Source: an uncultured Lachnospiraceae bacterium
Lineage (GTDB): Bacteria > Bacillota > Clostridia > Oscillospirales > CAG-272
Length of the DNA stretch: 64,000 nucleotides
Direction: 5' to 3'
NCBI GenBank assembly: GCA_964631595.1
Contig: CAZVXL010000004.1
Location: forward strand, 12,435-76,434
Below are positions 2,546 through 61,547 of this stretch, piece by piece. The translations under genes and the position numbers were made by a program. Position 1 is the first letter of the stretch. Each line of letters opens with the position of its first letter. Below the pieces are notes generated by a model. That model searched no databases, was not told the origin of the DNA, and saw nothing but the letters and a program-made list of their open reading frames with translations.

Positions 2546-2623
2546 TGGGGTGAGTGATGGGAGTCGAACCCACGGTCTTTAGGGCCACAACCTAACGCTC
2601 TAACCAACTGAGCTACACCCACC
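2546..2623 (-). tRNA. tRNA-His (GUG), with G-1 and encoded CCA
   Basis: Reverse complement is GGTGGGTGTAGCTCAGTTGGTTAGAGCGTTAGGTTGTGGCCCTAAAGACCGTGGGTTCGACTCCCATCACTCACCCCA. The cloverleaf folds, the anticodon loop is TTGTGGC, and an extra 5' G lies opposite C73. Confidence 0.9.
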
Positions 2624-2626
2624 GTG

Positions 2627-2703
2627 TGGCGTACCTTGGGGGATTCGAACCCTCGACCTACTGCTTAGAAGGCAGTTGCTCTATCCGGCTGAGCTAAAGG
2701 TAC
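2627..2703 (-). tRNA. tRNA-Arg (UCU)
   Basis: Reverse complement is GTACCTTTAGCTCAGCCGGATAGAGCAACTGCCTTCTAAGCAGTAGGTCGAGGGTTCGAATCCCCCAAGGTACGCCA. The acceptor stem is GTACCTT/AAGGTAC and the anticodon loop is CTTCTAA. Confidence 0.9.
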
Positions 2704-2744
2704 AGATCCGTATTACTCCTCCGCCGGAGAGGGGTAATAAAAAA

Positions 2745-2818
2745 TGGAGCGGGTGATGGGAATCGAACCCACATGGCCAGCTTGGAAGGCTGGAGTTCTA
2801 CCACTGAACTACACCCGC
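2745..2818 (-). tRNA. tRNA-Gly (UCC)
   Basis: Reverse complement is GCGGGTGTAGTTCAGTGGTAGAACTCCAGCCTTCCAAGCTGGCCATGTGGGTTCGATTCCCATCACCCGCTCCA. The anticodon loop is CTTCCAA. Confidence 0.9.
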
Positions 2819-2846
2819 AAAGGCACTTTTCTTCAAGCGCTCACTT

Positions 2847-2875
2847 ATGATACCATAACTTGCTCGGTTTGTCAA
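2847..2875 (-). promoter_or_regulatory. Sigma-A-type promoter of the Gly-Arg-His tRNA operon
   Basis: On the minus strand: TTGACA, 17-nt spacer, TATCAT preceded by TGG (extended -10). It ends about 30 nt upstream of tRNA-Gly. Confidence 0.6.
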
Positions 2876-2979: not shown

Positions 2980-3008
2980 TTGACACGGGAGGATACACAG
3001 GATATAAT
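2980..3008 (+). promoter_or_regulatory. Consensus sigma-A promoter of the mdh-fumC-hdr-flx-frd operon
   Basis: TTGACA (2980-2985), 17-nt spacer, TATAAT (3003-3008). It is the only such element upstream of 11 co-directional, tightly packed genes. Confidence 0.65.
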
Positions 3009-3164
3009 ATATAATGAATATGTGTGGGCTTTGTGACATATTCGGTGTGATCCGACCTACTCGGATCAATGCAGGATACTGCGACCTCGGTATCCGTCCG
3101 CGTGTCGGGCGGATATACGATCCGGCTGTTTTACAGCCGAATTCAAATGAAAGTGAAAATGATT

Positions 3165-4112
3165 ATGAGCAACAAGGTTACTGTAATCGGCTCGGGAAGT
3201 GTCGGCTCCACGATCTCATATACGCTTGCCGTAAACGGGATCGCATCGGAGATAGTTATGATCGACATCAATGAGTCAAAGTCACTTGGCGAGGCTCTTG
3301 ACATCAGACAGGGGATACCCTTCTGCTCCCCCGCCTCAATTTACGCCGGCACATACAGAGATGCCGCCGGCTCGGACATCGTCATTCTTACCTCGGGTGC
3401 CGCGAGAAAGGCGGGGCAGTCGAGAATAGACCTTGCCCAGATCAACGTGGATATTACAAGATCCATAATACCGGAGCTTGTGAGATACGCACCGGACGCG
3501 GTGTACATCATCGTGTCGAATCCGGTCGATATCCTCACCTATCAGTTCTGTAAGACCTCGGGTCTCTCGGAACGCCAGATAATCGGCTCGGGTACGATAC
3601 TTGATACGGCAAGACTCCGCACAAGGCTGTCGGAGTATTACAACATAAGTCAGCAGAACGTTCATGCGTACGTGTTCGGTGAGCACGGCGATTCGTCGTT
3701 CGTGCCGTGGTCGAACGCGACCATTTCCAATATCGCGATAGACAAGTATGTCGATTGCCTCACGGAAAAGGATCAGCTGATCCCGCCCCTTGACTATGAG
3801 GAGGTGGAGACCTACATAAAGAGATCCGGCGGAAAGATCATCGAGCGAAAGGGCGCTACCTTCTACGCCGTTGCGGTGTCGGTGTGCCATATCTGCAAGT
3901 GTATCTTTACCGGCGCGGACACGACGATGACGGTGTCCACCATGATGCACGGCGAATACGGCGTTGAGGACGTGTGCCTCAGCTCACTCTGTATCGTGGG
4001 CAAGGACGGTATCGTCGGAAAGATAGTTGCGCCCCTGACGGCGGAGGAGGAAGAAAAGTTCCGCCACAGCGCACAGTGTCTGAGAGACGTTATAGACAGA
4101 ATAAACATCTGA
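3165..4112 (+). CDS. LDH/MDH-superfamily 2-hydroxyacid dehydrogenase on an LDH scaffold with Arg at the Gln102 specificity position (predicted malate dehydrogenase)
   Basis: VTVIGSGSVGS Rossmann motif, SNPVDILTY, GSGTILDTARLR and catalytic GEHGDS. SGAARKAGQSRIDL aligns to LDH AGANQKPGETRLDL. The start is uncertain: in-frame ATGs lie at 3147, 3159 and 3165, and the track ORF starts at 3069. Confidence 0.8.
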   Translation: MSNKVTVIGSGSVGSTISYTLAVNGIASEIVMIDINESKSLGEALDIRQGIPFCSPASIYAGTYRDAAGSDIVILTSGAARKAGQSRIDLAQINVDITRSIIPELVRYAPDAVYIIVSNPVDILTYQFCKTSGLSERQIIGSGTILDTARLRTRLSEYYNISQQNVHAYVFGEHGDSSFVPWSNATISNIAIDKYVDCLTEKDQLIPPLDYEEVETYIKRSGGKIIERKGATFYAVAVSVCHICKCIFTGADTTMTVSTMMHGEYGVEDVCLSSLCIVGKDGIVGKIVAPLTAEEEEKFRHSAQCLRDVIDRINI

Positions 4113-4140
4113 GCCAAAGACTGAGAGAGGAGAGAATACA

Positions 4141-5517
4141 ATGAACTACCGCATTGAGCACGATTCCATGGGCGAGGTCAAGGTGCCTGCCGATAAGTAT
4201 TGGGGAGCGCAGACGGAGCGAAGCCATCGGAATTTCCCGATCGGCGTGGGACTTGAGGTTATGCCGAGGGAGATAACTGTGGCATTCGGTATATTGAAGA
4301 AGGCGGCGGCGAGAGCGAATAACAGGCTCGTCCCCGAGAGAATGACGGACGAAAAGCTGGCGGTGATCTCCGCTGCCTGCGATGAGGTCATCTCGGGTGA
4401 GCTTTTCCCGCATTTTCCGCTCGTTGTGTGGCAGACCGGAAGCGGCACGCAGTCCAACATGAACGCAAACGAGGTCATTGCCAACAGAGGAAACGAGCTT
4501 GCGGGCAAAAAGCTGCTTCATCCCAATGATGATATAAATATGAGCCAGTCGTCAAACGATACCTTCCCGACCGCCATGCACATATCGGCTGTGTGCGCGA
4601 TCGAGGATAAGGTGCTTCCCGCGGTGCGCCTGCTTATCAGCACGTTTCTGCGGCTTGAAGCCGAGAACGAGGGCATAGTAAAGAGCGGACGTACTCATTT
4701 GCAGGATGCGACTCCCATAAAGTTCTCTCAGGAAATCAGCGGATGGCGTGCATCTCTTGAGAGAGATGCGGAAATGCTTGAGCTCTCCCTCGGCGGACTG
4801 CGCGAGCTTGCGCTCGGCGGCACCGCCGTCGGAACAGGTCTGAATACGCCCGACGGCTTCGATACGGAGGTCGCGCGCGAGGTGTCCGCTCTCACGGGCA
4901 AGAGCTTTGTGACCGCCCCGAATAAGTTCCATGCGCTGACGAGCAAGGACGAGCTTGTGTTTGCACACGGCGCGCTGAAGGCTCTTGCCGCGGATATGAT
5001 GAAGATCGCAAACGACGTGAGATGGCTTGCCAGCGGCCCCAGAGACGGACTCGGAGAGATAACGATACCCGAGAACGAGCCCGGCTCCTCCATTATGCCC
5101 GGCAAGGTGAATCCCACGCAGTGTGAGGCGGTGACGATGGTCGCGGTTCAGGTAATGGGCAACGATACTGCTGTCGGCATTGCGGCATCTCAGGGAAATT
5201 TCGAGCTGAACGTGTTCATGCCGGTCTGTGCCTACAATTTCCTTCAGTCTGCGAGACTTCTTGCGGAGTCGATAGTTTCCTTCAATAACAGTTGTGCCGT
5301 CGGTATCAAGGCGAACAGAGAAAAAATGCACCACAACCTGCACAATTCTCTCATGCTCGTTACCGCGCTGAACCCGTATATCGGATACGAAAATGCGGCA
5401 AAGACCGCGAAAAAAGCATATAAGGACAACATCTCACTGAAGGAGGCCTGCGTCGAGCTCGGATTTTTGAGCGCGGAGCGCTTCGATGAGGTGTTCCATC
5501 CGGAAGAGATGGTCTGA
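4141..5517 (+). CDS. fumC: Class II fumarate hydratase
   Basis: 458 aa with the GSSIMPGKVNPTQCEA signature and the typical FumC N-terminus (RIEHDSMGEVKVPADKYWGAQTERS). Confidence 0.95.
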   Translation: MNYRIEHDSMGEVKVPADKYWGAQTERSHRNFPIGVGLEVMPREITVAFGILKKAAARANNRLVPERMTDEKLAVISAACDEVISGELFPHFPLVVWQTGSGTQSNMNANEVIANRGNELAGKKLLHPNDDINMSQSSNDTFPTAMHISAVCAIEDKVLPAVRLLISTFLRLEAENEGIVKSGRTHLQDATPIKFSQEISGWRASLERDAEMLELSLGGLRELALGGTAVGTGLNTPDGFDTEVAREVSALTGKSFVTAPNKFHALTSKDELVFAHGALKALAADMMKIANDVRWLASGPRDGLGEITIPENEPGSSIMPGKVNPTQCEAVTMVAVQVMGNDTAVGIAASQGNFELNVFMPVCAYNFLQSARLLAESIVSFNNSCAVGIKANREKMHHNLHNSLMLVTALNPYIGYENAAKTAKKAYKDNISLKEACVELGFLSAERFDEVFHPEEMV

Positions 5518-5540
5518 GGTCGGCTTACAAAGGAGAGTAC

Positions 5541-6326
5541 ATGATGACATACAGCTATTATCCGGGGTGTACCCTTAAAACCAAGGCAAAGGAGCTTGAC
5601 CGAAAGGGAAGGCTTGCCGCAGAGGCTCTCGGCATTACGCTTGAGGAGCTGCCGGAGTGGCAGTGCTGCGGCGGAGTATACACCATGGCAAGGGACGAGA
5701 TCGCCTCAAAGCTTGCATCGGTGAGAGCGCTTGCCGCGGCAAGAGAGCGCGGCGGCACTCTTGTCACCCTTTGCTCTGCCTGCCACAATGTTTTGAAGCA
5801 GGTCAACCGAGATATGAAGGAGCAGGGCGACATCTGCGACAGGGCAAATTCGTATATGAAGCTTGACATTCCGTACACCGGAGAGACGCAGGTCATACAT
5901 TATCTTGAGCTGCTCCGCGACAAAGTGGGCTTCGATGCGCTTGCGGAGGCTGTAAAGAAGCCGCTCGGTAAGAAGATCGGCGCATATTACGGTTGTCTCC
6001 TGCTTCGCCCAGCAAAGGTGATGCAGTTCGACGATCCCGAGGATCCGAGACTTATGGAGGAGCTTTTGCGAGCTCTCGGCGCGGAGCCGGTCATCTACGG
6101 TATGCGTAATGAGTGCTGCGGAGGCTATATGGCGACGGAGGATCCCGATGCCGCCGCAAAAAGAAGCGGTGACGTTATGGCGAACGCCGTCGGCGCGGGT
6201 GCCGAGGCGCTTATCACGGCGTGCCCACTCTGCCTCTACAATCTTACGAAAAATTCCGCATCGGGCGTACCGGTGTACTATTTTACGGAGCTTCTGTGCG
6301 AGGCTCTTGCGGCGGAGGTGCAGTGA
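5541..6326 (+). CDS. hdrB: Heterodisulfide-reductase subunit B-like protein (two CCG domains)
   Basis: Two complete C-x(n)-CC-x(n)-CxxC modules (PGC...QCCGG...CSAC and YGC...ECCGG...CPLC). AAGGAGA RBS. Confidence 0.85.
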   Translation: MMTYSYYPGCTLKTKAKELDRKGRLAAEALGITLEELPEWQCCGGVYTMARDEIASKLASVRALAAARERGGTLVTLCSACHNVLKQVNRDMKEQGDICDRANSYMKLDIPYTGETQVIHYLELLRDKVGFDALAEAVKKPLGKKIGAYYGCLLLRPAKVMQFDDPEDPRLMEELLRALGAEPVIYGMRNECCGGYMATEDPDAAAKRSGDVMANAVGAGAEALITACPLCLYNLTKNSASGVPVYYFTELLCEALAAEVQ

Positions 6327-6712
6327 TGAAATTCGAGAAAGAGCGTGAAGCGATAATCCGCATCAGCGGTGTGAACGTTCTGAAATGTATGAGATGCGGC
6401 AAATGCTCGGGCACGTGTCCCTCCTACGATGAGATGGAGTATCATCCTCACCAGTTTGTCTATATGGTGGAGAGGGGCGATATAGGGCCGCTCCTTGAAT
6501 CGGAGTCGATCTACAAGTGCCTCTCCTGCTTTGCCTGCGTGGAGCGCTGTCCGAGAGACGTCGAGCCGGCAAAGGTGATCGAGGCGGTCAGGCTTGTGAA
6601 GATAAGGGCGCAGGGCGCAAATCATATGAAGCCCGAGGACGTGCCCGATATGCTTGATCCCGAGCTCCCTCAGCAGGCGCTCGTAAGCTCCTTCAGAAAG
6701 TATGCGAAGTAG
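6326..6712 (+). CDS. hdrC: Heterodisulfide-reductase subunit C-like 2x[4Fe-4S] ferredoxin
   Basis: CMRCGKCSGTCP and CLSCFACVERCP motifs. Its ATG overlaps the hdrB stop (GTGATGA). The track ORF start at 6221 would overlap hdrB and is rejected. Confidence 0.8.
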   Translation: MKFEKEREAIIRISGVNVLKCMRCGKCSGTCPSYDEMEYHPHQFVYMVERGDIGPLLESESIYKCLSCFACVERCPRDVEPAKVIEAVRLVKIRAQGANHMKPEDVPDMLDPELPQQALVSSFRKYAK

Positions 6713-6730
6713 GAAAGGAAGGTATAGACA

Positions 6731-8722
6731 ATGCAGAGAATAGGCGTATTCGTGTGCCATTGCGGCACAAATATTGCCGGAACGGTCGATGTCGTTGCCG
6801 TTGCCGAGGCTCTGAGGAGCGAGGCGGGAGTCGTGATCTCCGAGGAGTATCAGTATATGTGCTCAGAGGCGGGACAGAACAAGATCAAGGATGCCATTCG
6901 GGATAATGCACTGACAGGTGTCGTGATCTGCTCCTGCTCTCCCAGAATGCATGAGGCAACCTTCCGAAAGACCGCCGCCGCCGCGGGCATCAACCCGTAC
7001 ATGGTGGAGATAGCGAATATCCGCGAGCAGGTATCGTGGATACATAAGGATAAAAACGAGGGAACGGAAAAGGCGATCATTCTCGGTCGCGCCGCTATCG
7101 CGAAGGTGCATCTCAATGCGCCGCTTCACGCGGGCGAGAGCCCCGTGACCAAGAGGGCGCTGGTGATCGGCGGAGGTATCGCCGGAATACAGACCGCGCT
7201 TGATATTGCCGAGGCGGGCTTCCCCGTGGATATAGTGGAAAAGAACCCGACTATAGGCGGCAAGATGACGCAGATAGATAAGACCTTCCCCACGCTTGAC
7301 TGTGCCGCCTGCATACTGACCCCGAAAATGGTGGATTGCGCGCAGAGTGACAAGATCCGCATCCTTGCCTACAGCGAGGTCGAGTCGGTGTCGGGCTTTG
7401 TCGGCAATTTTACCGCGAAGATCAGAAAAAAGGCAAGATACGTAGATGAGGTGAAATGCACCGGCTGCGGACTTTGCACCGAAAAGTGCCCGCAGAAGGC
7501 GATCCCGAACGAGTTCAATCTCGGAATGGATAACAGACGCGCGGTGTACATTCCCTTCGCTCAGGCGGTGCCGAAGGTCGCGACCATAGATCCCATGCAC
7601 TGCACGATGTTGAAAACGGGAAAATGCGGTGTTTGCTCCAAGGTGTGTACCGCAGGTGCGATAGACTATAAGCAGACGGATACGGTGATAAGCGAGCAGT
7701 ACGGCGCTATCGTGGTGGCTACGGGCTATAACCCGATAAAGCTTGACAGATTCGATGAATTTGCCTACAGTACCTCAAAGGACGTGGTGACGTCACTTGA
7801 GTTCGAGAGACTGACCAATGCCGCGGGACCCACCGCCGGCACGCTTCTCCGTCCCTCAGACGGAAAGCATCCGCATACGATAGTGTTCGTGCAGTGTGTC
7901 GGTAGCCGCGATACCTCGGGCTGCGGCAAGCAGTACTGCTCAAAGATATGCTGTATGTATACCGCAAAGCACGCGATGCTGGTGCGCGAGAAGTATCCGG
8001 ATACGGAGGTGTACGTATTCTATATCGACGTGCGTACCCCCGGAAAGAATTTCGATGAATTCTACCGCAGAGCCGTGGAGGAATACGGCGTGCATTACAT
8101 AAAGGGAATGGTCGGAAAGGTCGTGCCGGAGGCGGACGGAACTCTTACCGTTCGGGCATCGGATCTTATAGCGGGCGAGCAGCTCAAGATATCCGCGGAT
8201 ATGGTGGTGCTTGCCGCCGCCATCGAGCCGGACAGCAGTGCGAGACCGCTTGCGACCATGCTCACCGCAAGCATGGATACCAACGATTTCTTTACCGAGG
8301 CTCACCCGAAGCTCAGACCCGTGGAGAGCCCCACGGCGGGTATCTTCCTGTCGGGAGCGTGTCAGGGACCCAAGGATATTCCCGAGACCGTATCTCAGGC
8401 AAGTGCCGCCGCAGCGAAGGTCATAGGACTTCTTGCAAAGGACAGCCTGAAGGGCAATCCCTGTGTGGCACATTCCGATGAAATGATGTGTAACGGCTGC
8501 TCCTCGTGTGAGAGAGTGTGCCCCTACGGCGCTATCTCTTACGAGGATAAGGAATTCCGTATGCCCGACAGAACTACCGCGATACGCCGCGTGGCGGCGG
8601 TCAATCCCGCGGTATGCCAAGGCTGCGGAGCCTGTACCGTGGCGTGCCCGTCGGGTGCCATGGATCTTCGCGGCTTTACCAACAGACAGATCATGGCGGA
8701 GGTAGATGCAATATGCCGATGA
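6731..8722 (+). CDS. hdrA: Heterodisulfide-reductase subunit A-like FAD/Fe-S flavoprotein
   Basis: 663 aa. N-terminal VCHCGTNIAG, FAD fold VIGGGIAGIQTALDIAEAG, HdrA cluster motif CVGSRDTSGCGKQYCSKICC, inserted ferredoxin domain (CTGCGLCTEKCP, CGVCSKVCTAG) and C-terminal ferredoxin domain (CNGCSSCERVCP, CQGCGACTVACP). Confidence 0.9.
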   Translation: MQRIGVFVCHCGTNIAGTVDVVAVAEALRSEAGVVISEEYQYMCSEAGQNKIKDAIRDNALTGVVICSCSPRMHEATFRKTAAAAGINPYMVEIANIREQVSWIHKDKNEGTEKAIILGRAAIAKVHLNAPLHAGESPVTKRALVIGGGIAGIQTALDIAEAGFPVDIVEKNPTIGGKMTQIDKTFPTLDCAACILTPKMVDCAQSDKIRILAYSEVESVSGFVGNFTAKIRKKARYVDEVKCTGCGLCTEKCPQKAIPNEFNLGMDNRRAVYIPFAQAVPKVATIDPMHCTMLKTGKCGVCSKVCTAGAIDYKQTDTVISEQYGAIVVATGYNPIKLDRFDEFAYSTSKDVVTSLEFERLTNAAGPTAGTLLRPSDGKHPHTIVFVQCVGSRDTSGCGKQYCSKICCMYTAKHAMLVREKYPDTEVYVFYIDVRTPGKNFDEFYRRAVEEYGVHYIKGMVGKVVPEADGTLTVRASDLIAGEQLKISADMVVLAAAIEPDSSARPLATMLTASMDTNDFFTEAHPKLRPVESPTAGIFLSGACQGPKDIPETVSQASAAAAKVIGLLAKDSLKGNPCVAHSDEMMCNGCSSCERVCPYGAISYEDKEFRMPDRTTAIRRVAAVNPAVCQGCGACTVACPSGAMDLRGFTNRQIMAEVDAICR

Positions 8723-9159
8723 ATGAAAATAACGAGTTTCGTCCGTTGATAGTGGCATTCTGCTGTAACTGGTGCTCCTACGCCGGCGCAGACCTTGCGG
8801 GAACGAACCGTGCAGGATATCCGGCGGACGTGAAGATCATAAGAGTGCCGTGCTCCTGTCGTGTAAATCCCATGTTCATACTTAGAGCATTTCAGCGCGG
8901 AGCGGACGGCGTGATCGTGTGCGGCTGTCACCCCGGTGACTGCCACTACACGTCGGGCAACTATTATGCCAGAAGAAGAATGACCATGCTGTTCTCCATG
9001 CTTGATTACCTCGGCATCGAGAAGGAGCGCACAAGAGTGGAATGGATCTCCGCCGCCGAGGGCGCAAAGTTTGCCGCGACCATGAACGAATTTGTCGAGA
9101 CGGTGACACAGCTCGGCCCTAACAGGAGATTGGAGGACTTGAGATGCAGGAAAAACTGA
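8713..9159 (+). CDS. mvhD: MvhD/FlpD-like [2Fe-2S] protein (FlxD-like)
   Basis: IVAFCCNWCSY, VPCSCRVNP and VCGCHPGDCHY motifs. The ATG at 8713 overlaps the hdrA 3' end by 10 nt. The track ORF start at 8614 lies inside hdrA. Confidence 0.85.
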   Translation: MPMNENNEFRPLIVAFCCNWCSYAGADLAGTNRAGYPADVKIIRVPCSCRVNPMFILRAFQRGADGVIVCGCHPGDCHYTSGNYYARRRMTMLFSMLDYLGIEKERTRVEWISAAEGAKFAATMNEFVETVTQLGPNRRLEDLRCRKN

Positions 9160-10109
9160 TTTCGAGAGCTTCGGAGCTGCTCTCCTCCGGAGAGGTGGCA
9201 AGAGTTATCGGCTGGAAGCGCGGAGAGCTCGGCTACGATACGACTCCGGCGATATTCGAGAGCGCGGAGGAGCTGGAGAGAGATTTCGTGTACGGCGATT
9301 TCTGCGGCGCGAATCTGTCCAAATATTTGATAAAGAGCATGAGGAGCGAGGGCAAGACTCTTGTGATGCTGAAGCTGTGCGATACCTACAGCTTCAATCA
9401 GCTCCTCACGGAGCACAGGATAAGCCGCGATAAGACATACGTTATTGCGGTGGGCTGCGCCGGAATGGCGGATCCCGAGAGACTGCGTAGGCTCGGGATC
9501 ACCGGAATTACCGGAATCACGGGTGAGGGCGATAGCTTTGCAGTGTCCACCGTATACGGCGAGAGGACTGTGCCGAAGAAGGACTGCCTGTGCATAAAAT
9601 GCCTGTCCTGCAAGGGCGGCGAGCCGGTCGTGTACGATGAGATCATCGGCGGGGACATCACTCCTCCGAAGTTCGACGACCGCTTTGAGCAGGTACACGC
9701 GCTTGAGGCGATGAGCCCCGAGGAGAGATATGGATTCTGGAGAGGGGAGCTGTCACGCTGTATCAGATGTAACGCCTGCCGAAATGTTTGCCCCGCCTGC
9801 TCCTGCGAGAGCTGTGTGTTCGATAACCCGAATTCGGGCGTGGCACAGAAGGCGGCTGCCGACTCCTTTGAGGAGAATATGTTCCATATAATCAGAGCCT
9901 TCCACGTCGCCGGAAGATGCACCGATTGCGGAGAGTGCTCCAGAGTGTGCCCCGAGAGCATACCGCTCCATCTTCTGAACAGGAAGTTTATTTCCGATAT
10001 CGACAGCTATTACGGAAAGTATCAGGCGGGTGAGACCGAAGGGCAGAGAGCACCTCTTGTGGATTACACCGAGGACGATGCGGAGCCCTCCGCCATCTAT
10101 GACAGATAA
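9144..10109 (+). CDS. AsrA/HydB-type Fe-S protein (FlxC/FlxB-like), paralog 1
   Basis: 321 aa with CIRCNACRNVCPACSC (CxxCxxCxxxCPxCxC) and CTDCGECSRVCP. It overlaps the mvhD end by 16 nt and contains a GITGITGITG tract. Confidence 0.65.
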   Translation: MQEKLISRASELLSSGEVARVIGWKRGELGYDTTPAIFESAEELERDFVYGDFCGANLSKYLIKSMRSEGKTLVMLKLCDTYSFNQLLTEHRISRDKTYVIAVGCAGMADPERLRRLGITGITGITGEGDSFAVSTVYGERTVPKKDCLCIKCLSCKGGEPVVYDEIIGGDITPPKFDDRFEQVHALEAMSPEERYGFWRGELSRCIRCNACRNVCPACSCESCVFDNPNSGVAQKAAADSFEENMFHIIRAFHVAGRCTDCGECSRVCPESIPLHLLNRKFISDIDSYYGKYQAGETEGQRAPLVDYTEDDAEPSAIYDR

Positions 10110-10120
10110 GGGGGAGAGAT

Positions 10121-11137
10121 ATGTATTTTCTTAAAAAAGACAGACTGAGCGAGCTTTTTGCGGCTCTCTCCGCAGACTCGGCTCTTTATCTTCCCGCAAA
10201 GAATAAGGACGGCAAGACAGATTACGTGCGGTATACCGACGGGGTGGAATACAGCGATGCGCTCAATACGGAGCGCAGTGCCAAGGATTTCTTCTTCCCC
10301 CAGACGGAGGATATCGCGGATTTCAGAGTGGACGGAAAGAGCATCGAGGTGATAGACATTCGCCGTGAGCACGAGGATTACGTGATCTTCGGTGTGCGCG
10401 CCTGCGATATGGCAAGCTTTGATATTCTTGATTCCGTGTACCTGTCCGAGCCGATCGACAGCTATTATGCCGAGAGGCGCAGTCATGCGACTGTCATGAC
10501 GGTCGCTTGCCGTACTCCCGCGGAGACGTGCTTCTGCCGATGCTTCGGCATAGATCCCGCCGCTCCGGGCGGAGATGTGGCTTGTGCTCTCAGTGACAGC
10601 GGACTTTACCTTGAGGTAAGGACCGAAAAGGGAGAGGCACTGATCGGAAAGGTATCCCATATGCTTGAAGAGACCGACGGCGCGGAGGCGGCGGAGCAGG
10701 GAAAGCGGTGTCATGAGCTGATGGACAGACTCCCCCTTGCCGGACTCACCCCCGATGCCTTCGGCGGCGAGCGAATGATGGAGCATTTTTCCTCGGAGAA
10801 ATGGGCGTCCCTCTCCGAGGCGTGTCTCGGCTGCGGCACCTGCACCTTTGTGTGCCCCACCTGCCAGTGCTACGATATAAGAGATTTCGATACAGGAAGC
10901 GGCATAAGGCGTTTCCGTTGCTGGGATAGCTGTATGTATTCCGATTTCACGAAAATGGCTCACGGCAACTCCCGAAACAGTCAGCTTGAAAGATTCAGAC
11001 AGCGCTTCATGCACAAGCTTATGTACTATCCCGCAAACAACGACGGCAAATTCGGCTGTGTCGGCTGCGGCAGATGCCTGTCCAAGTGCCCCATCTCCAT
11101 GAATATCGTCAAGGTGATGAAGGCGCTTGGAGACTGA
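10121..11137 (+). CDS. Anaerobic sulfite reductase subunit A-like / sulfhydrogenase beta-like Fe-S protein (FlxB/FlxC-like), paralog 2
   Basis: 338 aa with CLGCGTCTFVCPTCQCYD and CVGCGRCLSKCP, and the AsrA-like N-terminal part (VIFGVRACD, FCRCFG). Confidence 0.7.
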   Translation: MYFLKKDRLSELFAALSADSALYLPAKNKDGKTDYVRYTDGVEYSDALNTERSAKDFFFPQTEDIADFRVDGKSIEVIDIRREHEDYVIFGVRACDMASFDILDSVYLSEPIDSYYAERRSHATVMTVACRTPAETCFCRCFGIDPAAPGGDVACALSDSGLYLEVRTEKGEALIGKVSHMLEETDGAEAAEQGKRCHELMDRLPLAGLTPDAFGGERMMEHFSSEKWASLSEACLGCGTCTFVCPTCQCYDIRDFDTGSGIRRFRCWDSCMYSDFTKMAHGNSRNSQLERFRQRFMHKLMYYPANNDGKFGCVGCGRCLSKCPISMNIVKVMKALGD

Positions 11138-11167
11138 TTTCGAGACGGCAACAGAAAGGAGCTAAGT

Positions 11168-11995
11168 ATGTATAACGAAACACTTATTCCGAGTATAGGA
11201 GTCATCACCGATATAAGGCAGGATACTCCGGACGTCAAGACCTTCCGAGTAGTCACGCCCGACGGAAAAAAGCCCTTCGTCCATATCCCCGGACAGTGCG
11301 CCATGCTCTCCGTCCCCGGAGTCGGAGAGGCGATGTTCTCAATAACCTCATCTCCCACGAATACCGAATTCTTTGAATTTTCCATAAAAAAGTGCGGCTG
11401 TCTCACGGATTGGCTTCACCGAATGGAGGTCGGTCAGCAGATAACGATCAGAGGCCCCTACGGAAACGGCTTCCCCGTGGATACCGTCCTCAAGGGCAAG
11501 GATCTGCTTTTCATTGCGGGAGGAATAGGACTTGCGCCCCTGCGCTCCGTGATAAACTATGTCCGCGACAGGAGAGAGAATTACGGTCGGGTGCAGATAG
11601 TCTACGGCTCACGCTCCATGGACGATCTCGTGGATTATGAGGAGATAATCGGTGAGTGGTCGAAGGATCCCGACGTCGAGGTGGCTCTGACGATAGACAG
11701 AGAGCAAGAGGGATGGAACGGACACGTCGGCTTCGTCCCGAGCTATGTGAAGGAGCTCTCCCCCGATATCTCAAGAACGGTGCTTGTCTGCGGCCCTCCG
11801 ATCATGATAAAGTTCACGCTTGCATCTCTGAAGGAGCTGGGCTTTACGGAGACGCAGGTGTTTACCACGATGGAGCTTCGCATGAAGTGCGGTGTCGGCA
11901 AGTGCGGCAGATGCAATATAGGCTCACGGTACGTTTGCAAGGACGGGCCGGTGTTCCGTTATGATGAGCTGTCGGAGCTGCCCGATGAGTATTGA
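11168..11995 (+). CDS. AsrB/PyrK/sulfhydrogenase-gamma-like FAD/NAD(P)H oxidoreductase with C-terminal [2Fe-2S] (FlxA-like)
   Basis: 275 aa. FNR-like fold (FVHIPGQCAMLS, FSITSSP, LLFIAGGIGLAPLRS, VLVCGPPIM) and a C-terminal CGVGKCGRCNIG...C cluster. Confidence 0.8.
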   Translation: MYNETLIPSIGVITDIRQDTPDVKTFRVVTPDGKKPFVHIPGQCAMLSVPGVGEAMFSITSSPTNTEFFEFSIKKCGCLTDWLHRMEVGQQITIRGPYGNGFPVDTVLKGKDLLFIAGGIGLAPLRSVINYVRDRRENYGRVQIVYGSRSMDDLVDYEEIIGEWSKDPDVEVALTIDREQEGWNGHVGFVPSYVKELSPDISRTVLVCGPPIMIKFTLASLKELGFTETQVFTTMELRMKCGVGKCGRCNIGSRYVCKDGPVFRYDELSELPDEY

Positions 11996-12043
11996 TGCGG
12001 CGCTCGGCGCTTGATATATAAAAACAAAGGAGAATGATCCCCT

Positions 12044-12718
12044 ATGGAAAACACGGTAAATATATTTCTTATGGGTAAAAGGTATGCGGTTCCCGAGAGC
12101 CTGACCATAATGAGGGCTATGGAATACGCGGGCTATGAGCTTGTTCGCGGCTGCGGCTGCAGAAACGGCTTCTGCGGAGCCTGCGCGACCGTTTACCGCA
12201 TAAAGGGCGAGAGCGAGCTTCACGCCTGCCTTGCCTGCCAGACGAAGGTCGAGGAGGGTATGTACATAGCGACACTGCCCTTCTTCCCGCTTGTCAAGAA
12301 GGTATATGATATCGAGAAGATCGGCCCCACCGAGCAGATCATGATGCAGCTTTATCCCGAGATATACGCCTGCATAGGCTGTAATGCCTGCACAAAGGCG
12401 TGTACGCAGGGACTTAACGTAATGCAGTATATCGCATATGCGCAGAGGGGCGAGTACGAGAAGTGCGCGGAGGAATCCTTTGACTGCGTAATGTGCGGAG
12501 TATGCTCATCGAGATGCCCTGCCGGAATTTCCCATCCGCAGGTGGCGCTTCTTGCAAGACGTCTTAACGGAAAGTATCTTGCGCCCGCAAGCGAGCATCT
12601 TGAAAACAGAGTTCGCGAGATCGAGAACGGCACCTTTGAGGAGCTTATCGAGGGACTTATGCAGAAGCCCTTGGCTGAGCTGAAGGAGCTGTACAACACA
12701 AGAGATATCGAGAAGTAA
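12044..12718 (+). CDS. Succinate dehydrogenase/fumarate reductase iron-sulfur subunit-like protein ([2Fe-2S] plus two full 4-Cys motifs)
   Basis: 224 aa with CGCRNGFCGACAT...C, CIGCNACTKAC and CVMCGVCSSRCP. Confidence 0.7.
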   Translation: MENTVNIFLMGKRYAVPESLTIMRAMEYAGYELVRGCGCRNGFCGACATVYRIKGESELHACLACQTKVEEGMYIATLPFFPLVKKVYDIEKIGPTEQIMMQLYPEIYACIGCNACTKACTQGLNVMQYIAYAQRGEYEKCAEESFDCVMCGVCSSRCPAGISHPQVALLARRLNGKYLAPASEHLENRVREIENGTFEELIEGLMQKPLAELKELYNTRDIEK

Positions 12719-12730
12719 GGAGGATTCAAA

Positions 12731-14329
12731 ATGTATACTGCCGAAATGCTTGAATCCATGAAAAGGGTGGAGGCGAGGCGCGCCGAAAACGCGGCGCTTG
12801 AGCCGCGCAGAATGACTGCCGAGGAAAAGGAGGCTCTCCTTGCGGCATATCATCCGGATCACAAGAAAAGCGAATTTTCCGTTCTGAAGATCGGAGCGAA
12901 CAAGGGTGAGGAGGTTCCTCACGAGCTTGCAGCACTCCTTCAGGGCAAAAGCCGCATCACCGCATCCTCGGTGAACCTTGATGCGCCCGATTACGATGTT
13001 GACGTGCTTGTGATCGGCGGCGGCGGAGCGGGCTCCTCTGCGGCGATCGAGGCACACGCCGCCGGAGCGAACGTGATGATAGTCACAAAGCTCAGAATAG
13101 GCGATGCGAATACCATGATGGCTGAGGGCGGAATCCAAGCCGCTGACAAGGAGAACGATTCTCCCGCCATTCACTATCTTGATGCCTTCGGAGGCGGACA
13201 CTTTGCCGCCAAGCCCTCACTTCTGAAAAGGCTTGTTACGGAGGCTCCCGAGGCTATTATGTGGCTGAATGAGCTCGGAGTGGAGTTTGACAAGGACGAA
13301 AACGGCACTATGGTCACCACGCACGGCGGCGGCACATCGAGGAAAAGAATGCACGCGGCAAAGGATTATTCCGGCGCCGAGATCATGCGTACTCTCCGCG
13401 ATGAGGTGCTGAACCGCGAGATACCCGTGGTCGATTTCACCTCTGCCATTGAGCTTATTCTTGATGAAAACGGACACGCCGCCGGAGCGGTGCTCCTCAA
13501 TATGGAGACGGATGAGCTTCTTGTGGCGAGAGCGAAAACGGTCATAATCGCCACGGGCGGAGCCGGCAGACTCCATTATCAGGGCTTCCCCACATCGAAT
13601 CATTACGGAGCTACGGCGGACGGACTTGTGCTTGCATACAGAGCGGGCGCAAAGCTCATGTATCCGGATACTCTCCAGTATCACCCCACGGGTGCCGCCT
13701 TCCCCGAGCAGATCTTCGGTGCGCTCGTTACGGAGAAGGTGCGCTCTCTCGGAGCAAAGCTCATCAACGCCAACGGCGAGGCATTCATGCATCCTCTTGA
13801 GACGCGTGACGTCTCGGCGGCTTCGATCATTCGCGAGTGCGGCGACAGAGGAAACGGTGTAAAAACCGCCGACGGCGTGGGAGTTTGGCTTGATACTCCC
13901 ATGATCGAGCTCAAGAACGGCGAGGGAACGATCGAGGCGCGTATCCCCGCGATGATGCGTATGTTCGGAAAGTACGGAATAGATATCAGGCGCGAGCCTA
14001 TCCTCGTTTATCCGACACTGCACTATCAGAACGGCGGAATTGATATCGAGCCCGACGGGCAGAGTGCGATCTCGGGTCTGTTTGTCGCGGGCGAGGCTGT
14101 TGGAGGAATCCACGGACGTAACAGACTTATGGGTAACTCCCTCCTTGACATTATCGTATTCGGAAGAAGCGCCGGCAAGAATGCCGCGGCACTTGCGAAG
14201 GATACGACTCTCGGTGCGCTCACGCTGGAACACATCGAGGCGTTCGAAAAGGAACGCGCAGCGGCAGGTATCACCGATACCGTGGTATCTCCGAAGCTGC
14301 TTCCCTCGTATGCGAGAAAGAAGAACTGA
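12731..14329 (+). CDS. Fumarate reductase/succinate dehydrogenase/L-aspartate oxidase-family flavoprotein; soluble, predicted non-covalent FAD
   Basis: 532 aa with DVLVIGGGGAGSSAA, LQYHPTG, LVTEKVRSLG, LHYQNGGI and GLFVAGEAVGGIHGRNRLMGNSLLD. Asn (13109-13111) replaces the covalent-FAD His. About 88 aa of N-terminal extension. Confidence 0.8.
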   Translation: MYTAEMLESMKRVEARRAENAALEPRRMTAEEKEALLAAYHPDHKKSEFSVLKIGANKGEEVPHELAALLQGKSRITASSVNLDAPDYDVDVLVIGGGGAGSSAAIEAHAAGANVMIVTKLRIGDANTMMAEGGIQAADKENDSPAIHYLDAFGGGHFAAKPSLLKRLVTEAPEAIMWLNELGVEFDKDENGTMVTTHGGGTSRKRMHAAKDYSGAEIMRTLRDEVLNREIPVVDFTSAIELILDENGHAAGAVLLNMETDELLVARAKTVIIATGGAGRLHYQGFPTSNHYGATADGLVLAYRAGAKLMYPDTLQYHPTGAAFPEQIFGALVTEKVRSLGAKLINANGEAFMHPLETRDVSAASIIRECGDRGNGVKTADGVGVWLDTPMIELKNGEGTIEARIPAMMRMFGKYGIDIRREPILVYPTLHYQNGGIDIEPDGQSAISGLFVAGEAVGGIHGRNRLMGNSLLDIIVFGRSAGKNAAALAKDTTLGALTLEHIEAFEKERAAAGITDTVVSPKLLPSYARKKN

Positions 14330-14346
14330 GCCTTATAAATACGAAA

Positions 14347-14374
14347 CGGCGGGAGGACGACTGTCCTCCCGCCG
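14347..14374. terminator. Bidirectional hairpin terminator between the frd-like gene and yigZ
   Basis: CGGCGGGAGGAC-GACT-GTCCTCCCGCCG: a perfect 12-bp GC-rich stem between convergent genes. Confidence 0.7.
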
Positions 14375-14415
14375 TGTTGCTTTGTGACTGTATCACAGGC
14401 GCGTGCGATGTGCGC

Positions 14416-17046: not shown

Positions 17047-17076
17047 TTGACAAGACCGAGGACAATGTTGTATAAT
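17047..17076 (+). promoter_or_regulatory. Sigma-A promoter of rpmH
   Basis: TTGACA (17047-17052), 18-nt spacer, TATAAT (17071-17076). Confidence 0.6.
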
Positions 17077-39279: not shown

Positions 39280-39311
39280 TGCACTCTGCAGCCTCCGCAG
39301 AGTGCATTTTT
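39280..39311 (+). terminator. Second, strong intrinsic terminator in the same spacer
   Basis: TGCACTCTGC-AGCCTCC-GCAGAGTGCA: a perfect 10-bp stem followed by TTTTT. Confidence 0.65.
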
Positions 39312-39418
39312 GGTATCCGCCTTTCCGTAAAGGATCCGCCTGCCCCATCCGTTTCGTGAGATGCATAAGCCTTGCACGGCGGGGAACAATAACAAAAACA
39401 GTTGTCGGGGGATATGCG

Positions 39419-48190: not shown

Positions 48191-48225
48191 GCGGAGCACC
48201 GGTCGAGCGCGCCTGTCAGCCTGTG

Positions 48226-48252
48226 AAACCGTGCATATCGGCGCGGTTTTTT
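48226..48252 (+). terminator. Hairpin plus T-run after the SRP RNA
   Basis: AAACCGTGC-ATATCG-GCGCGGTTT followed by TTTTTT. Confidence 0.55.
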
Positions 48253-48275
48253 CCTGACTTTATCTTGCGGAAGGG

Positions 48276-61352: not shown

Positions 61353-61547
61353 AAAGCACCTCCGTTGTTTGATACGGCATTATATGCAAGGACGGCGGAT
61401 AATAGTAATTTTCGGCGGACGGAGAGGCGACTGCCCGATTGTTTGTCATAAGTTCATAATGAATTCATTTGTTTGTGGTAAAATAAGGATATTGATATTA
61501 TCCATAAGGAGTGATATGTTCGAAATTTGCCCAAAGGAGGAATAGCA

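What the first reader, a model, noticed from the sequence alone, without database searches (positions are those of the whole stretch)
2980..14374. An 11-gene operon joins MDH and fumarase to HdrBCA-MvhD, a Flx-like NAD(P)H module and an anchor-less FrdAB: candidate electron-bifurcating soluble fumarate reductase
Seen in sequence: eleven co-directional genes run from one consensus promoter (TTGACA-17-TATAAT, 2980-3008) to one 12-bp GC hairpin (14347-14374). Intergenic gaps are at most 48 nt, and three junctions overlap (hdrB/hdrC ATGA at 6323-6326, hdrA/mvhD at 8713-8722, mvhD/next gene at 9144-9159). The order is: LDH-scaffold dehydrogenase with the MDH-type Arg, class II fumarase, HdrB (two intact CCG modules), HdrC, HdrA (FAD fold plus CVGSRD...CSKICC plus four ferredoxin motifs), MvhD, two AsrA/HydB-type Fe-S proteins, an AsrB/PyrK-type FAD/NAD(P)H protein, a FrdB-like protein and a FrdA-like protein.

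Established knowledge: the HdrA FAD is the bifurcating centre of Mvh-HdrABC. FlxABCD-HdrABC of Desulfovibrio is proposed to couple NADH oxidation to reduction of ferredoxin and a high-potential acceptor. Methanogen thiol:fumarate reductase TfrB fuses a FrdB-like Fe-S part to HdrB-type CCG motifs.

Inference: here the high-potential acceptor would be fumarate (about +30 mV), made in situ from oxaloacetate by the first two gene products. NADH (-320 mV) could then reduce both fumarate and ferredoxin (roughly 2 NADH + Fd_ox + fumarate -> 2 NAD+ + Fd_red + succinate), or the reaction could run in reverse. No FrdC/D-type membrane anchor or quinone-related gene lies in the operon. I know of no biochemically characterised complex with this composition, but I cannot verify novelty without database and literature searches.
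Basis: partly seen in the sequence, partly recalled or inferred. Interest (0 to 1): 0.88.

Follow-up and report, generated by a model that had tools for sequence, protein, structure and literature searches.

The report
Flx-Hdr-linked soluble fumarate reductase operon
This is a real 11-gene operon of a gut Clostridium that converts oxaloacetate to succinate using a membrane-free fumarate reductase wired to an NADH-oxidising, heterodisulfide-reductase-type module that probably also reduces ferredoxin; the same operon and the same idea have been published for other bacteria, but no one has yet shown the activity.

Summary
Eleven co-directional genes (3147/3165-14329, + strand) lie between a perfect sigma-70 promoter, unique in the window, and a 13-bp GC hairpin. 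Gaps are at most 48 nt and three junctions overlap. HMMs confirm the gene order: LDH-family dehydrogenase with the MDH-type Arg, FumC, HdrB, HdrC, HdrA, MvhD/FlxD, two Fe-S proteins, a FAD/NAD(P)H protein, and a FrdB-like and a FrdA-like protein.

The FrdA-like protein keeps every fumarate-reductase catalytic residue. It has Asn in place of the flavinylated His, lacks the C-terminal domain, and carries an 87-residue N-terminal extension. None of the 11 proteins has a membrane segment.

The nine-gene core hdrBCA-mvhD-flxCBA-frdBA is collinear in 53 of 54 related genomes, mostly gut or rumen Clostridia. fumC precedes it in 51 and mdh in 39.

It is not new. The same operon is the 'succinate operon' of Pseudoclostridium thermosuccinogenes (PMC7282089), proposed there as an electron-bifurcating fumarate reductase. 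tfrAB-flx-hdr clusters were also described in tubeworm symbionts (PMC6315080). Verdict: new member of a known but uncharacterised kind; moderate interest.

The parts
2980..3008 (+). Sigma-70-type promoter, TTGACA-17-TATAAT
   Evidence: 12/12 match. It is the only exact match in the window and occurred in 0/100 shuffles.
3015..3164 (+). About 150-nt structured 5' leader (inferred untranslated region)
   Evidence: MFE -56.1 kcal/mol, z = -3.7 against shuffles. There is no Rfam match. It is not conserved in related loci by blastn.
3165..4112 (+). mdh: LDH-family NAD-dependent dehydrogenase with the malate-type Arg (alternative starts at 3147 and 3069)
   Evidence: Ldh_1_N and Ldh_1_C. It passes the NCBIfam L-LDH cut-offs but not the MDH cut-offs. 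The Q102-equivalent residue is Arg (GAARKAGQSR) in 42/42 operon-linked orthologues.
4141..5517 (+). fumC: class II fumarate hydratase
   Evidence: TIGR00979 scores 693.2 bits, above the 664.75 cut-off. The aspartase models score below their cut-offs.
5541..6326 (+). hdrB: two CCG domains (sites of noncubane [4Fe-4S] clusters)
   Evidence: PF02754 matches twice. The protein aligns with HdrB structures at E about 1e-34. All 10 CCG cysteines are conserved in 50/50 orthologues. It also matches SdhE (E = 9e-37) and the C-terminal half of TfrB.
6326..6712 (+). hdrC: 2x[4Fe-4S] ferredoxin-like subunit (1-nt overlap with the hdrB stop codon)
   Evidence: TIGR03290 and the HdrC models match. Eight Cys are conserved in 54/54 orthologues. 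The start codon is discussed under.
6731..8722 (+). hdrA: FAD plus multi-[4Fe-4S] subunit, the bifurcating flavoprotein in characterised Hdr complexes
   Evidence: 787.7 bits to the HdrA2 model over positions 1-640. 689 bits to 5odc_A over residues 3-661. All cluster cysteines are conserved in 57-58 of 58 orthologues.
8713..9159 (+). mvhD/flxD: [2Fe-2S] adaptor
   Evidence: PF02662 FlpD, E = 2e-56. It matches HdrA2 model positions 642-774. Eight Cys are conserved in 61/61 orthologues.
9144..10109 (+). FlxC-like Fe-S protein (name assigned from mirrored gene order, tentative)
   Evidence: Fer4 families match residues 202-273. The C-terminal half is homologous to the FdhB C-terminus in the Fdh-Hdr supercomplex structures 7bkb_E and 8rvu_E. 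The cysteines are conserved.
10121..11137 (+). FlxB-like Fe-S protein (HydB/AsrA type)
   Evidence: Matches ShyB, HydB and AsrA models. Matches the P. furiosus sulfhydrogenase I beta subunit 9nez_B at E = 9e-42.
11168..11995 (+). FlxA-like FAD/NAD(P)H protein with a PyrK-type [2Fe-2S] cluster
   Evidence: FAD_binding_6, NAD_binding_1 and DHODB_Fe-S_bind. Matches HydG and AsrB models. C241, C246, C249 and C257 are conserved in 71/71 orthologues.
12044..12718 (+). frdB-like: [2Fe-2S] domain plus two complete CxxCxxCxxxC motifs, so two [4Fe-4S] are predicted and no [3Fe-4S]
   Evidence: Fer2_4/Fer2_3 plus Fer4 families. It matches positions 19-149 of the TfrB model. The Cys pattern is conserved in 77-78 of 78 orthologues. 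A natural FrdB-FrdA fusion exists elsewhere.
12731..14329 (+). frdA-like: soluble fumarate reductase flavoprotein with non-covalent FAD, an N-terminal 87-aa extension and no C-terminal domain
   Evidence: The best NCBIfam match is TfrA (343.6 bits, below the 718 cut-off). Catalytic residues were mapped on E. coli FrdA and SdhA and are invariant in 81/81 orthologues; the His44 equivalent is Asn in 81/81. The AF2 model has pLDDT 88.7. The top Foldseek hit is E. coli FrdA 1kf6_A, TM 0.72.
14346..14375 (.). GC-rich hairpin, a candidate bidirectional terminator between convergent genes
   Evidence: 13 pairs (10 G-C) and a 4-nt loop, reported on both strands.

Best explanation
The operon encodes the reductive branch oxaloacetate -> malate -> fumarate -> succinate, together with a cytoplasmic nine-subunit fumarate reductase.

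Inferred electron path: NAD(P)H is oxidised at FlxA (FAD, [2Fe-2S]). Electrons pass through the FlxB and FlxC Fe-S proteins and the MvhD/FlxD [2Fe-2S] cluster to the HdrA FAD. There the electron pair is split. One electron goes uphill through the HdrA ferredoxin domains to ferredoxin. The other goes downhill through HdrC and the HdrB CCG clusters into FrdB ([2Fe-2S] and 2x[4Fe-4S]) and the non-covalently bound FAD of FrdA, which reduces fumarate. The net reaction is about 2 NADH + Fd(ox) + fumarate -> 2 NAD+ + Fd(red) + succinate. Reduced ferredoxin is then available to Rnf or to hydrogenases, which would give a quinone-free equivalent of fumarate respiration.

Shown here: gene identities, cofactor motifs, catalytic residues, the absence of membrane segments, and strong conservation of the gene linkage.

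Inferred: that the proteins form a complex, the route through HdrB, the bifurcation, and the stoichiometry.
For: Family assignments.

HdrA plus MvhD together cover positions 1-774 of the 777-position HdrA2 model, and all cluster cysteines are conserved.

The Flx-like module resembles the NAD(P)H-diaphorase beta and gamma subunits of sulfhydrogenase. Its FlxC-like member resembles the FdhB C-terminus in Fdh-Hdr supercomplex structures.

FrdB-like, HdrC and HdrB tile the thiol:fumarate reductase TfrB model at positions 19-149, 131-218 and 264-486. FrdA's best family match is TfrA. HdrB, FrdB and FrdA therefore look like a split Tfr.

In FrdA, the equivalents of H232, T244, E245, R248, R287, H355 and R390 are invariant, and the His44 equivalent is Asn, in 81/81 sequences. 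Its predicted fold is closest to E. coli FrdA.

None of the 11 proteins has a stretch that reaches the usual 1.6 hydropathy threshold for a membrane helix.

The nine-gene core is collinear in 53/54 loci, with fumC in 51 and mdh in 39. It is also present in [Clostridium] leptum.

The hdr-frd linkage recurs in a second architecture, korDABC-hdrA-mvhD-hdrC-hdrB-frdB-frdA, at 54% FrdA identity.

The P. thermosuccinogenes operon has the same gene order and sizes. It is highly expressed and co-regulated, and was proposed to couple succinate formation to ferredoxin reduction.

Thermodynamics: fumarate is at +33 mV and NADH at -320 mV (PMC5861303). This leaves ample driving force to lift one electron to ferredoxin, as with crotonyl-CoA at -10 mV in Bcd-Etf. 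That last step is an inference.
Against: No biochemical data exist for any member.

In characterised enzymes, the HdrB CCG clusters are substrate (disulfide) sites, not relays. Electron transfer from HdrB to FrdB has no precedent apart from the analogy with TfrB and SdhE.

The FrdBA module also occurs without Hdr: with a NuoF-like protein, alone next to a transporter, or as a fusion. Hdr is therefore not needed for fumarate reduction as such.

FlxABCD-HdrABC itself has never been shown in vitro to bifurcate. NADH versus NADPH specificity cannot be read from the sequence. A single transcript in this organism is inferred only from spacing.
Confidence: 0.6

Rival explanations
1. Two enzymes are linked by a diffusible thiol/disulfide. 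Flx-HdrABC bifurcates NADH electrons to ferredoxin and to an unknown disulfide at HdrB. The resulting thiol is then re-oxidised by a Tfr-like fumarate reductase.
For: The characterised function of HdrB is disulfide reduction, and Tfr oxidises thiols at CCG clusters. PMC7282089 describes Flx-Hdr as transferring electrons 'to ferredoxin (and thiols)'. PMC11636981 mentions a DsrC-like carrier as an alternative.
Against: FrdB-like has no CCG domain, so FrdAB alone has no known thiol-oxidising site. The operon has only one CCG protein. No DsrC-like or other small thiol-protein gene lies in the operon or its flanks. CoM and CoB are not expected in Clostridia (general knowledge).
Confidence: 0.15
2. 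A plain, non-bifurcating NAD(P)H:fumarate oxidoreductase. Flx and Hdr subunits only wire NADH to FrdAB, and ferredoxin is not involved.
For: A related FrdBA pair (47% identity) sits in a three-gene unit with a NuoF-like NADH module and no Hdr. This shows that simple NADH-linked versions probably exist.
Against: A full-length HdrA, with every cluster ligand of the bifurcating methanogen enzyme, is kept in 53/54 loci at 73-85% identity. It is hard to see why this would be retained if a one-subunit NADH module were enough.
Confidence: 0.15
3. The FrdA-like flavoprotein acts on another substrate, for example as an L-aspartate oxidase (several databases annotate it so) or on another enoate.
For: Some homologues are annotated 'L-aspartate oxidase'. 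The nadB models score only somewhat below TfrA. Fumarate reductases and LASPO share the same catalytic residues.
Against: It scores below the nadB cut-off (270.5 against 452.75). The position of the LASPO-specific Glu121 is His in 81/81 sequences (the role of Glu121 is from memory). Fumarate reductase structures rank above LASPO in Foldseek, rank 1 against rank 45. fumC is adjacent in 51/54 loci.
Confidence: 0.05
4. The complex runs in reverse: succinate oxidation driven by reduced ferredoxin (confurcation), producing NADH.
Against: The His that carries covalent FAD is replaced by Asn in 81/81 sequences. Covalent flavinylation is required for succinate oxidation but not for fumarate reduction in E. 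coli FrdA (established knowledge, from memory). The mdh and fumC context, and the succinate-producing relatives P. thermosuccinogenes and Ruminococcus flavefaciens (loci L063 and L082), point to the reductive direction.
Confidence: 0.03

Closest known systems
'Succinate operon' of Pseudoclostridium (Hungateiclostridium) thermosuccinogenes (CDQ83_RS03320-RS03365; PMC7282089 and preprint 10.20944/preprints201912.0288.v1)
   Same: The order and gene sizes match: fumC (1366 nt), an hdrB-sized gene (784 nt), an hdrC-sized gene, a five-gene block of 5348 nt, an frdB-sized gene (676 nt) and an frdA-sized gene (1603 nt). The published hypothesis is also the same: fumarate reduction coupled to ferredoxin reduction through Flx-Hdr.
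   Different: Here an LDH-family MDH gene is added upstream in the same operon; there, the gene next to fumC is poorly expressed. Here there is no small downstream hypothetical gene. I could not align the sequences directly, because that genome was not retrievable with the tools.
FlxABCD-HdrABC of Desulfovibrio vulgaris (Ramos et al. 2015, as cited in PMC7282089 and PMC5861303)
   Same: The same seven domain types are present: a FAD/NAD(P)H protein with [2Fe-2S], two Fe-S proteins, an MvhD-like protein, and HdrA, HdrB and HdrC.
   Different: The gene order is mirrored (hdrBCA-flxDCBA). The proposed high-potential acceptor there is a DsrC-type disulfide, whereas here a FrdBA module is attached. 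Orthology to the D. vulgaris proteins was not tested.
Thiol:fumarate reductase TfrAB of Methanothermobacter (Heim et al. 1998, as cited in PMC6315080)
   Same: It is the best-scoring family for the flavoprotein. It is soluble, has non-covalent-type FAD, and combines Fe-S and CCG modules with a fumarate-reducing flavoprotein. FrdB, HdrC and HdrB together tile TfrB.
   Different: The TfrA model scores 343.6 bits against a 718 cut-off. The CCG domain is on a separate HdrB that belongs to an HdrABC set. The FrdA-like protein lacks about 130 C-terminal residues of TfrA and has an N-terminal extension. CoM-SH and CoB-SH are unlikely donors here.
tfrAB interspersed with flxABCD-hdrABC and korABCD in rTCA clusters of tubeworm symbionts and Thioflavicoccus (PMC6315080, PMC11636981)
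   Same: The same association of a Tfr-like soluble fumarate reductase with Flx-Hdr, and the same proposal of direct electron delivery. Locus L085, found here, has kor-hdrA-mvhD-hdrCB-frdBA.
   Different: The context there is autotrophic rTCA in Gammaproteobacteria with OGOR interleaved. Here it is a fermentative succinate branch in Clostridia with mdh and fumC.
Membrane-bound quinol:fumarate reductase FrdABCD, and type E SdhABEF/MFR
   Same: The flavoprotein fold and catalytic residues are shared. Type E enzymes also use an HdrB-like CCG subunit (SdhE), to which the HdrB here scores E = 9e-37.
   Different: Here there is no covalent-FAD His, no [3Fe-4S] motif, no membrane anchor and no quinone genes.

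Membership tests
FlxABCD-HdrABC-type NADH dehydrogenase/heterodisulfide reductase | HdrA (FAD plus multiple [4Fe-4S]), HdrB (two CCG motifs) and HdrC (2x[4Fe-4S]) encoded together | tested here: met
   All ligand cysteines are conserved.
FlxABCD-HdrABC-type NADH dehydrogenase/heterodisulfide reductase | Flx module: a FAD/NAD(P)H/[2Fe-2S] protein, two Fe-S proteins and an MvhD-like protein adjacent to hdr | tested here: met
   Domain composition. Sequence orthology to D. vulgaris FlxA-D was not tested.
FlxABCD-HdrABC-type NADH dehydrogenase/heterodisulfide reductase | NADH-dependent, ferredoxin-coupled reduction of a high-potential acceptor (flavin-based bifurcation) | not testable with these tools
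   This needs an anaerobic enzyme assay. It has not been shown in vitro for any Flx-Hdr in the papers I read.
Thiol:fumarate reductase TfrAB | TfrA equivalog score (NF004900 cut-off 718 bits) | tested here: not met
   343.6 bits. The match covers model positions 6-413 of 546.
Thiol:fumarate reductase TfrAB | TfrB: Fe-S part and CCG domains fused in one polypeptide | tested here: not met
   FrdB-like (224 aa) matches only positions 19-149 of TfrB. The CCG part lies on the separate HdrB.
Quinol:fumarate reductase / succinate:quinone reductase (FrdABCD/SdhABCD) | His for covalent 8-alpha-FAD attachment (E. coli FrdA His44) | tested here: not met
   Asn127 occupies this position in 81/81 sequences.
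Quinol:fumarate reductase / succinate:quinone reductase (FrdABCD/SdhABCD) | Membrane anchor subunit(s) and a quinone site | tested here: not met
   No stretch reaches the usual 1.6 hydropathy threshold in any of the 11 proteins (maximum KD19 of 1.57, in the MDH core). The flanking genes are unrelated.
Quinol:fumarate reductase / succinate:quinone reductase (FrdABCD/SdhABCD) | Catalytic residues for fumarate/succinate interconversion (equivalents of H232, T244, E245, R248, R287, H355 and R390) | tested here: met
   All are present and invariant in 81/81 sequences.
L-aspartate oxidase (NadB) | nadB equivalog score (TIGR00551 cut-off 452.75) and the LASPO-specific Glu121 | tested here: not met
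   270.5 bits. The Glu121 position is His198 in 81/81 sequences. The role of Glu121 is from memory.
LDH-like malate dehydrogenase | Arg at the substrate-discriminating position 102 (Gln in L-LDH) | tested here: met
   GAARKAGQSR; Arg in 42/42 orthologues. By HMM the protein passes the L-LDH cut-offs (348.1 against 339; 324.8 against 303.55) and misses the MDH cut-off (269.2 against 283). It is therefore an MDH on an LDH scaffold by inference; the activity is untested.
Class II fumarate hydratase (FumC) | TIGR00979 equivalog cut-off of 664.75 bits | tested here: met
   693.2 bits over the full length.

The most novel reading that the evidence does not exclude
The complex would be a distinct class of flavin-based electron-bifurcating enzyme, an NADH-dependent ferredoxin:fumarate oxidoreductase. 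In it, the HdrB noncubane clusters would act as an electron relay into FrdBA rather than as a disulfide-reducing site. It would be the main fumarate reductase of quinone-free, succinate-forming gut and rumen Clostridia, such as Ruminococcus flavefaciens and the C. leptum group.
Probability: 0.45. Interest if true: 0.75.

Novelty: new member of a known kind. Interest (0 to 1): 0.45.

Why it matters
If the mechanism is right, many gut and rumen Clostridia gain extra energy from succinate formation without quinones or cytochromes, by turning fumarate reduction into a source of reduced ferredoxin for Rnf or H2 production. That would change the redox and ATP balances used in models of gut and rumen fermentation, and the accounting of succinate, propionate and H2 fluxes. 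It would add fumarate to the short list of high-potential acceptors known to drive flavin-based bifurcation. It would also give HdrB a role beyond disulfide chemistry.

The operon is compact, very widespread (at least 596 matching stretches in species-representative genomes) and present in cultured strains, so the question can be tested directly. The idea is already in the literature. What this window adds is one more example, with mdh included, from an uncultured species.

Tried and rejected
(1) The first AlphaFold run used 27 close homologues (82-96% identity) and gave pLDDT 56.7. I discarded it. A 12-sequence alignment with more divergent members gave 88.7.

(2) I tried to read the 2019 preprint (10.20944/preprints201912.0288.v1); it is not held.

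(3) A search for the phrase 'bifurcating fumarate reductase' returned 0 papers. Searches on Flx-Hdr, on thermosuccinogenes and on HdrA/MvhD with fumarate reductase found no biochemical characterisation.

(4) The 5' leader has no Rfam match at gathering thresholds and no blastn conservation in 82 related loci. It is structured, but I did not pursue it.

(5) I considered and rejected an L-aspartate oxidase assignment, a membrane QFR/SQR assignment and a succinate-oxidising direction. The reasons are given under the membership tests and the rival explanations.

The comparison with that operon therefore rests on gene order, gene lengths and the paper's annotation.

(7) Internal promoter-like sites (7743, 13287) and weak terminator-like sites inside genes (6258, 8518, 10832) are within the numbers expected by chance. 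I did not take them as evidence for sub-operons.

(8) No multimer prediction was possible with the tools.

Full report
**1. Observation.**

The window carries eleven co-directional + strand ORFs between 3069/3147 and 14329.
- The promoter TTGACA-17-TATAAT at 2980-3008 is a 12/12 match. It is the only exact match in the 64 kb, and none occurred in 100 shuffles.
- Downstream, a 13-bp stem (10 G-C pairs, 4-nt loop) at 14346-14375 lies between the last gene and a convergent UPF0029-family gene.
- Intergenic gaps are 28, 23, 18, 11, 30, 48 and 12 nt. hdrA/mvhD overlap by 10 nt and mvhD/flxC-like by 16 nt.
- The hdrB/hdrC junction is GTGATG, not ATGA. The likely hdrC start is ATG 6326, one base into the hdrB stop codon, with a GGAGG 7 nt upstream. 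This gives 128 aa, as in [Clostridium] leptum.
- The first gene probably starts at ATG 3165 (315 aa). That leaves a leader of about 150 nt that folds well beyond shuffled controls (z = -3.7). The leader matches no Rfam family and is not conserved in relatives.
- Internal promoter-like and terminator-like hits are no more frequent than chance predicts.

**2. Gene identities.**

- **Gene 1** is an Ldh_1 family protein. It passes the NCBIfam L-LDH cut-offs but carries Arg at the Gln102 discriminator position (GAARKAGQSR). This Arg is present in all 42 operon-linked orthologues, so it is an MDH on an LDH scaffold by inference.
- **Gene 2** passes the fumC_II equivalog cut-off.
- **Genes 3-6** are HdrB, HdrC, HdrA and MvhD.
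  - HdrB has two CCG domains and matches HdrB structures at E about 1e-34.
  - HdrA scores 689 bits to the M. wolfeii HdrA structure over residues 3-661.
  - HdrA and MvhD together cover positions 1-774 of the 777-position HdrA2 model.
- **Gene 7** (321 aa) has a C-terminal Fe-S domain homologous to the FdhB C-terminus in the Fdh-Hdr supercomplex structures 7bkb and 8rvu.
- **Gene 8** is HydB/AsrA-like and matches the sulfhydrogenase I beta subunit 9nez_B at E = 9e-42.
- **Gene 9** is a HydG/AsrB/PyrK-like FAD/NAD(P)H protein with a [2Fe-2S] cluster.
- Genes 6-9 together have the composition described for FlxD, FlxC, FlxB and FlxA, in mirrored order.
- **Gene 10** has a [2Fe-2S] fold followed by two complete CxxCxxCxxxC motifs. 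This predicts two [4Fe-4S] clusters rather than a [4Fe-4S] plus a [3Fe-4S].
- **Gene 11** has FAD_binding_2 only. Its best family is TfrA (343.6 bits, below the 718 cut-off), ahead of Sdh/Frd and NadB models.
- Every predicted cluster ligand is conserved in 50-81 orthologues.
- No protein has a stretch that reaches the usual 1.6 hydropathy threshold for a membrane helix.
- The flanking genes (tRNAs, TrmO, UPF0029, HflX, an EamA-family transporter and others) include no quinone or cytochrome functions.

**3. The flavoprotein.**

I mapped the HMMER alignments to E. coli FrdA and SdhA.
- The equivalents of H232, T244, E245, R248, R287, H355 and R390 are all present and invariant in 81 sequences.
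- The His that carries covalent FAD (FrdA His44) is Asn127 in 81/81 sequences. It remains Asn in homologues as distant as 39-54% identity.
- The position of the aspartate-oxidase-specific Glu is His.
- The protein ends about 40 residues after the FAD domain, so the helical and C-terminal domains are missing. In their place it has a conserved 87-residue N-terminal extension.
- A usable AlphaFold model (pLDDT 88.7) is closest to E. coli FrdA (1kf6_A, TM 0.72). L-aspartate oxidase ranks only 45th.
- Non-covalent FAD is expected to favour fumarate reduction over succinate oxidation (established knowledge for FrdA His44 variants, from memory).

**4. Comparative evidence.**

- The flavoprotein has more than 8000 close relatives. 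These include proteins from [Clostridium] leptum, Phocea, Solibaculum, Anaerotruncus and Neobittarella, variously annotated as FAD-dependent oxidoreductase, L-aspartate oxidase or fumarate reductase.
The best 80 are nearly all gut or rumen Clostridia.
- In my tblastn survey, 53 of 54 loci with enough upstream DNA have the nine-gene core hdrB-hdrC-hdrA-mvhD-flxC-flxB-flxA-frdB-frdA in the same order. fumC precedes it in 51 and the Arg102 MDH in 39. All 26 truncated loci are consistent with this order as far as their DNA reaches.
- C. leptum has the identical 11-gene layout.
- More distant members show that FrdBA is a portable module:
  - korDABC-hdrA-mvhD-hdrC-hdrB-frdB-frdA in a metagenome contig, at 54% FrdA identity;
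  - frdB-frdA followed by a NuoF-like gene in marine Gammaproteobacteria, at 47% identity;
  - a CitMHS transporter followed by frdBA, without hdr, in a Congzhengia MAG;
  - a natural FrdB-FrdA fusion.
- The recurrence of hdr next to frdBA in two different gene orders argues for a functional Hdr-Frd link. The Hdr-free versions argue that Hdr adds something beyond electron supply.

**5. Mechanism.**

- NAD(P)H is oxidised by the Flx module, and electrons reach the HdrA flavin through MvhD.
- The flavin bifurcates. The low-potential electron goes to ferredoxin.
- The high-potential electron goes through HdrC and HdrB to FrdB and FrdA, and on to fumarate.
- The HMM tiling of TfrB by FrdB-like (positions 19-149), HdrC (131-218) and HdrB (264-486), together with the TfrA-like flavoprotein, suggests that HdrB, FrdB and FrdA form a split thiol:fumarate reductase plugged into HdrA.
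- Fumarate (+33 mV) against NADH (-320 mV) gives a larger driving force than crotonyl-CoA (-10 mV) in the established Bcd-Etf system (values from PMC5861303). The energetics are my inference.
- Complex formation, the route through HdrB, ferredoxin coupling, stoichiometry and nucleotide specificity are all inferred.
- Rivals:
  - a diffusible thiol/disulfide shuttle, weakened by the lack of a second CCG protein or a carrier gene;
  - a non-bifurcating wire, weakened by the strict retention of a full HdrA;
  - a non-fumarate substrate, and a reverse direction; both are poorly supported.

**6. What is known.**

- The same operon was published as the 'succinate operon' of Pseudoclostridium thermosuccinogenes: fumarate hydratase, seven Flx-Hdr genes, two fumarate reductase genes and a small hypothetical gene. 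[quoted passage not shown]
- Its RNA-seq table gives gene lengths that match this window gene for gene. All of those genes are highly expressed and co-regulated, and five of them are merged into one transcript model.
- Independently, tfrAB interleaved with flxABCD-hdrABC and korABCD was described in rTCA clusters of tubeworm symbionts and Thioflavicoccus. Direct electron delivery was proposed (PMC6315080) and expression support was added later (PMC11636981).
- Passing mentions of HdrA next to Sdh/Frd genes exist for Ruminococcus champanellensis and Thiomargarita.
- I found no biochemical or structural characterisation. No Flx-Hdr or Hdr-Frd complex appears among PDB sequences.

**7. Verdict.**

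It is another member of an already recognised, still uncharacterised kind, so it is not a discovery. This window's particular features are the inclusion of an Arg102 MDH in the operon (shared with 39/54 relatives) and its origin in an uncultured spore-forming Clostridium (GerA and SRP RNA in the window; best FrdA identity to any species-representative genome is 84%).

Interest is moderate (0.45). The open question, whether an electron-bifurcating fumarate reductase exists, is worthwhile and directly testable in cultured carriers.

Noticed in passing
window 3015-3164: The roughly 150-nt leader between the promoter and the first gene folds into four or five hairpins (MFE -56.1 kcal/mol, z = -3.7). 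One hairpin, at 3110-3124, is followed by a T-rich run and was flagged as terminator-like. There is no Rfam match and no sequence conservation in related loci. It could be an attenuator or another regulatory leader.
   Followed up: partly
L083/L084 9366-12891: In marine Gammaproteobacteria MAGs, a FrdB-like and a FrdA-like pair (47% identical to the window protein, N-terminal extension kept) is followed by a NuoF-like gene (Complex1_51K, SLBB, NADH_4Fe-4S). No hdr or flx genes are nearby. This looks like a three-subunit soluble NADH:fumarate reductase.
   Followed up: partly
L085 811-9771: A metagenome contig carries korDABC-hdrA-mvhD-hdrC-hdrB-frdB-frdA, with 54% FrdA identity. This is a second, differently ordered Hdr-Frd architecture, with 2-oxoglutarate:ferredoxin oxidoreductase attached. 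It resembles the published rTCA clusters.
   Followed up: partly
L087 5250-7433: P0122 is a natural 727-aa fusion of the FrdB-like protein (41% identity) and the FrdA-like protein (56% identity). It stands alone, without hdr or flx upstream.
   Followed up: partly
L078 8079-11605: A Congzhengia MAG has a CitMHS-family transporter gene directly upstream of frdB-frdA and no hdr or flx within 10 kb. It is the single exception among 54 loci.
   Followed up: partly
L013, L064, L069: Contigs binned as Treponema, Bacteroides uniformis and Bacteroidaceae carry the complete Clostridia-type operon at 75-82% FrdA identity. Mis-binning is the likely cause, and horizontal transfer is the alternative.
   Followed up: no
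window 2546-2875: A tRNA-His/Arg/Gly cluster on the - strand has its own 11/12 promoter-like site at 2875-2847. It is divergent from the operon promoter, about 100 nt away.
   Followed up: no
window 17047-17076: A second 12/12 promoter-like site (TTGACA-18-TATAAT, + strand) lies upstream of short ORFs with no family assignment.
   Followed up: no
window 61527-62915: A citrate synthase gene (PF00285, E = 6e-116) lies in the same window. It is a further TCA-branch enzyme that draws on the same oxaloacetate pool.
   Followed up: no
window 47901-49889: The large bacterial SRP RNA (163 bits) is directly followed by dnaX. A GerA spore-germination gene at 39302-40846 marks the organism as a spore former.
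   Followed up: no
window 54240-56377: An RpiR-type regulator is followed by a HI0933-like flavoprotein (419 aa), which also matches FAD_binding_2 weakly. It is unrelated to the operon.
   Followed up: no
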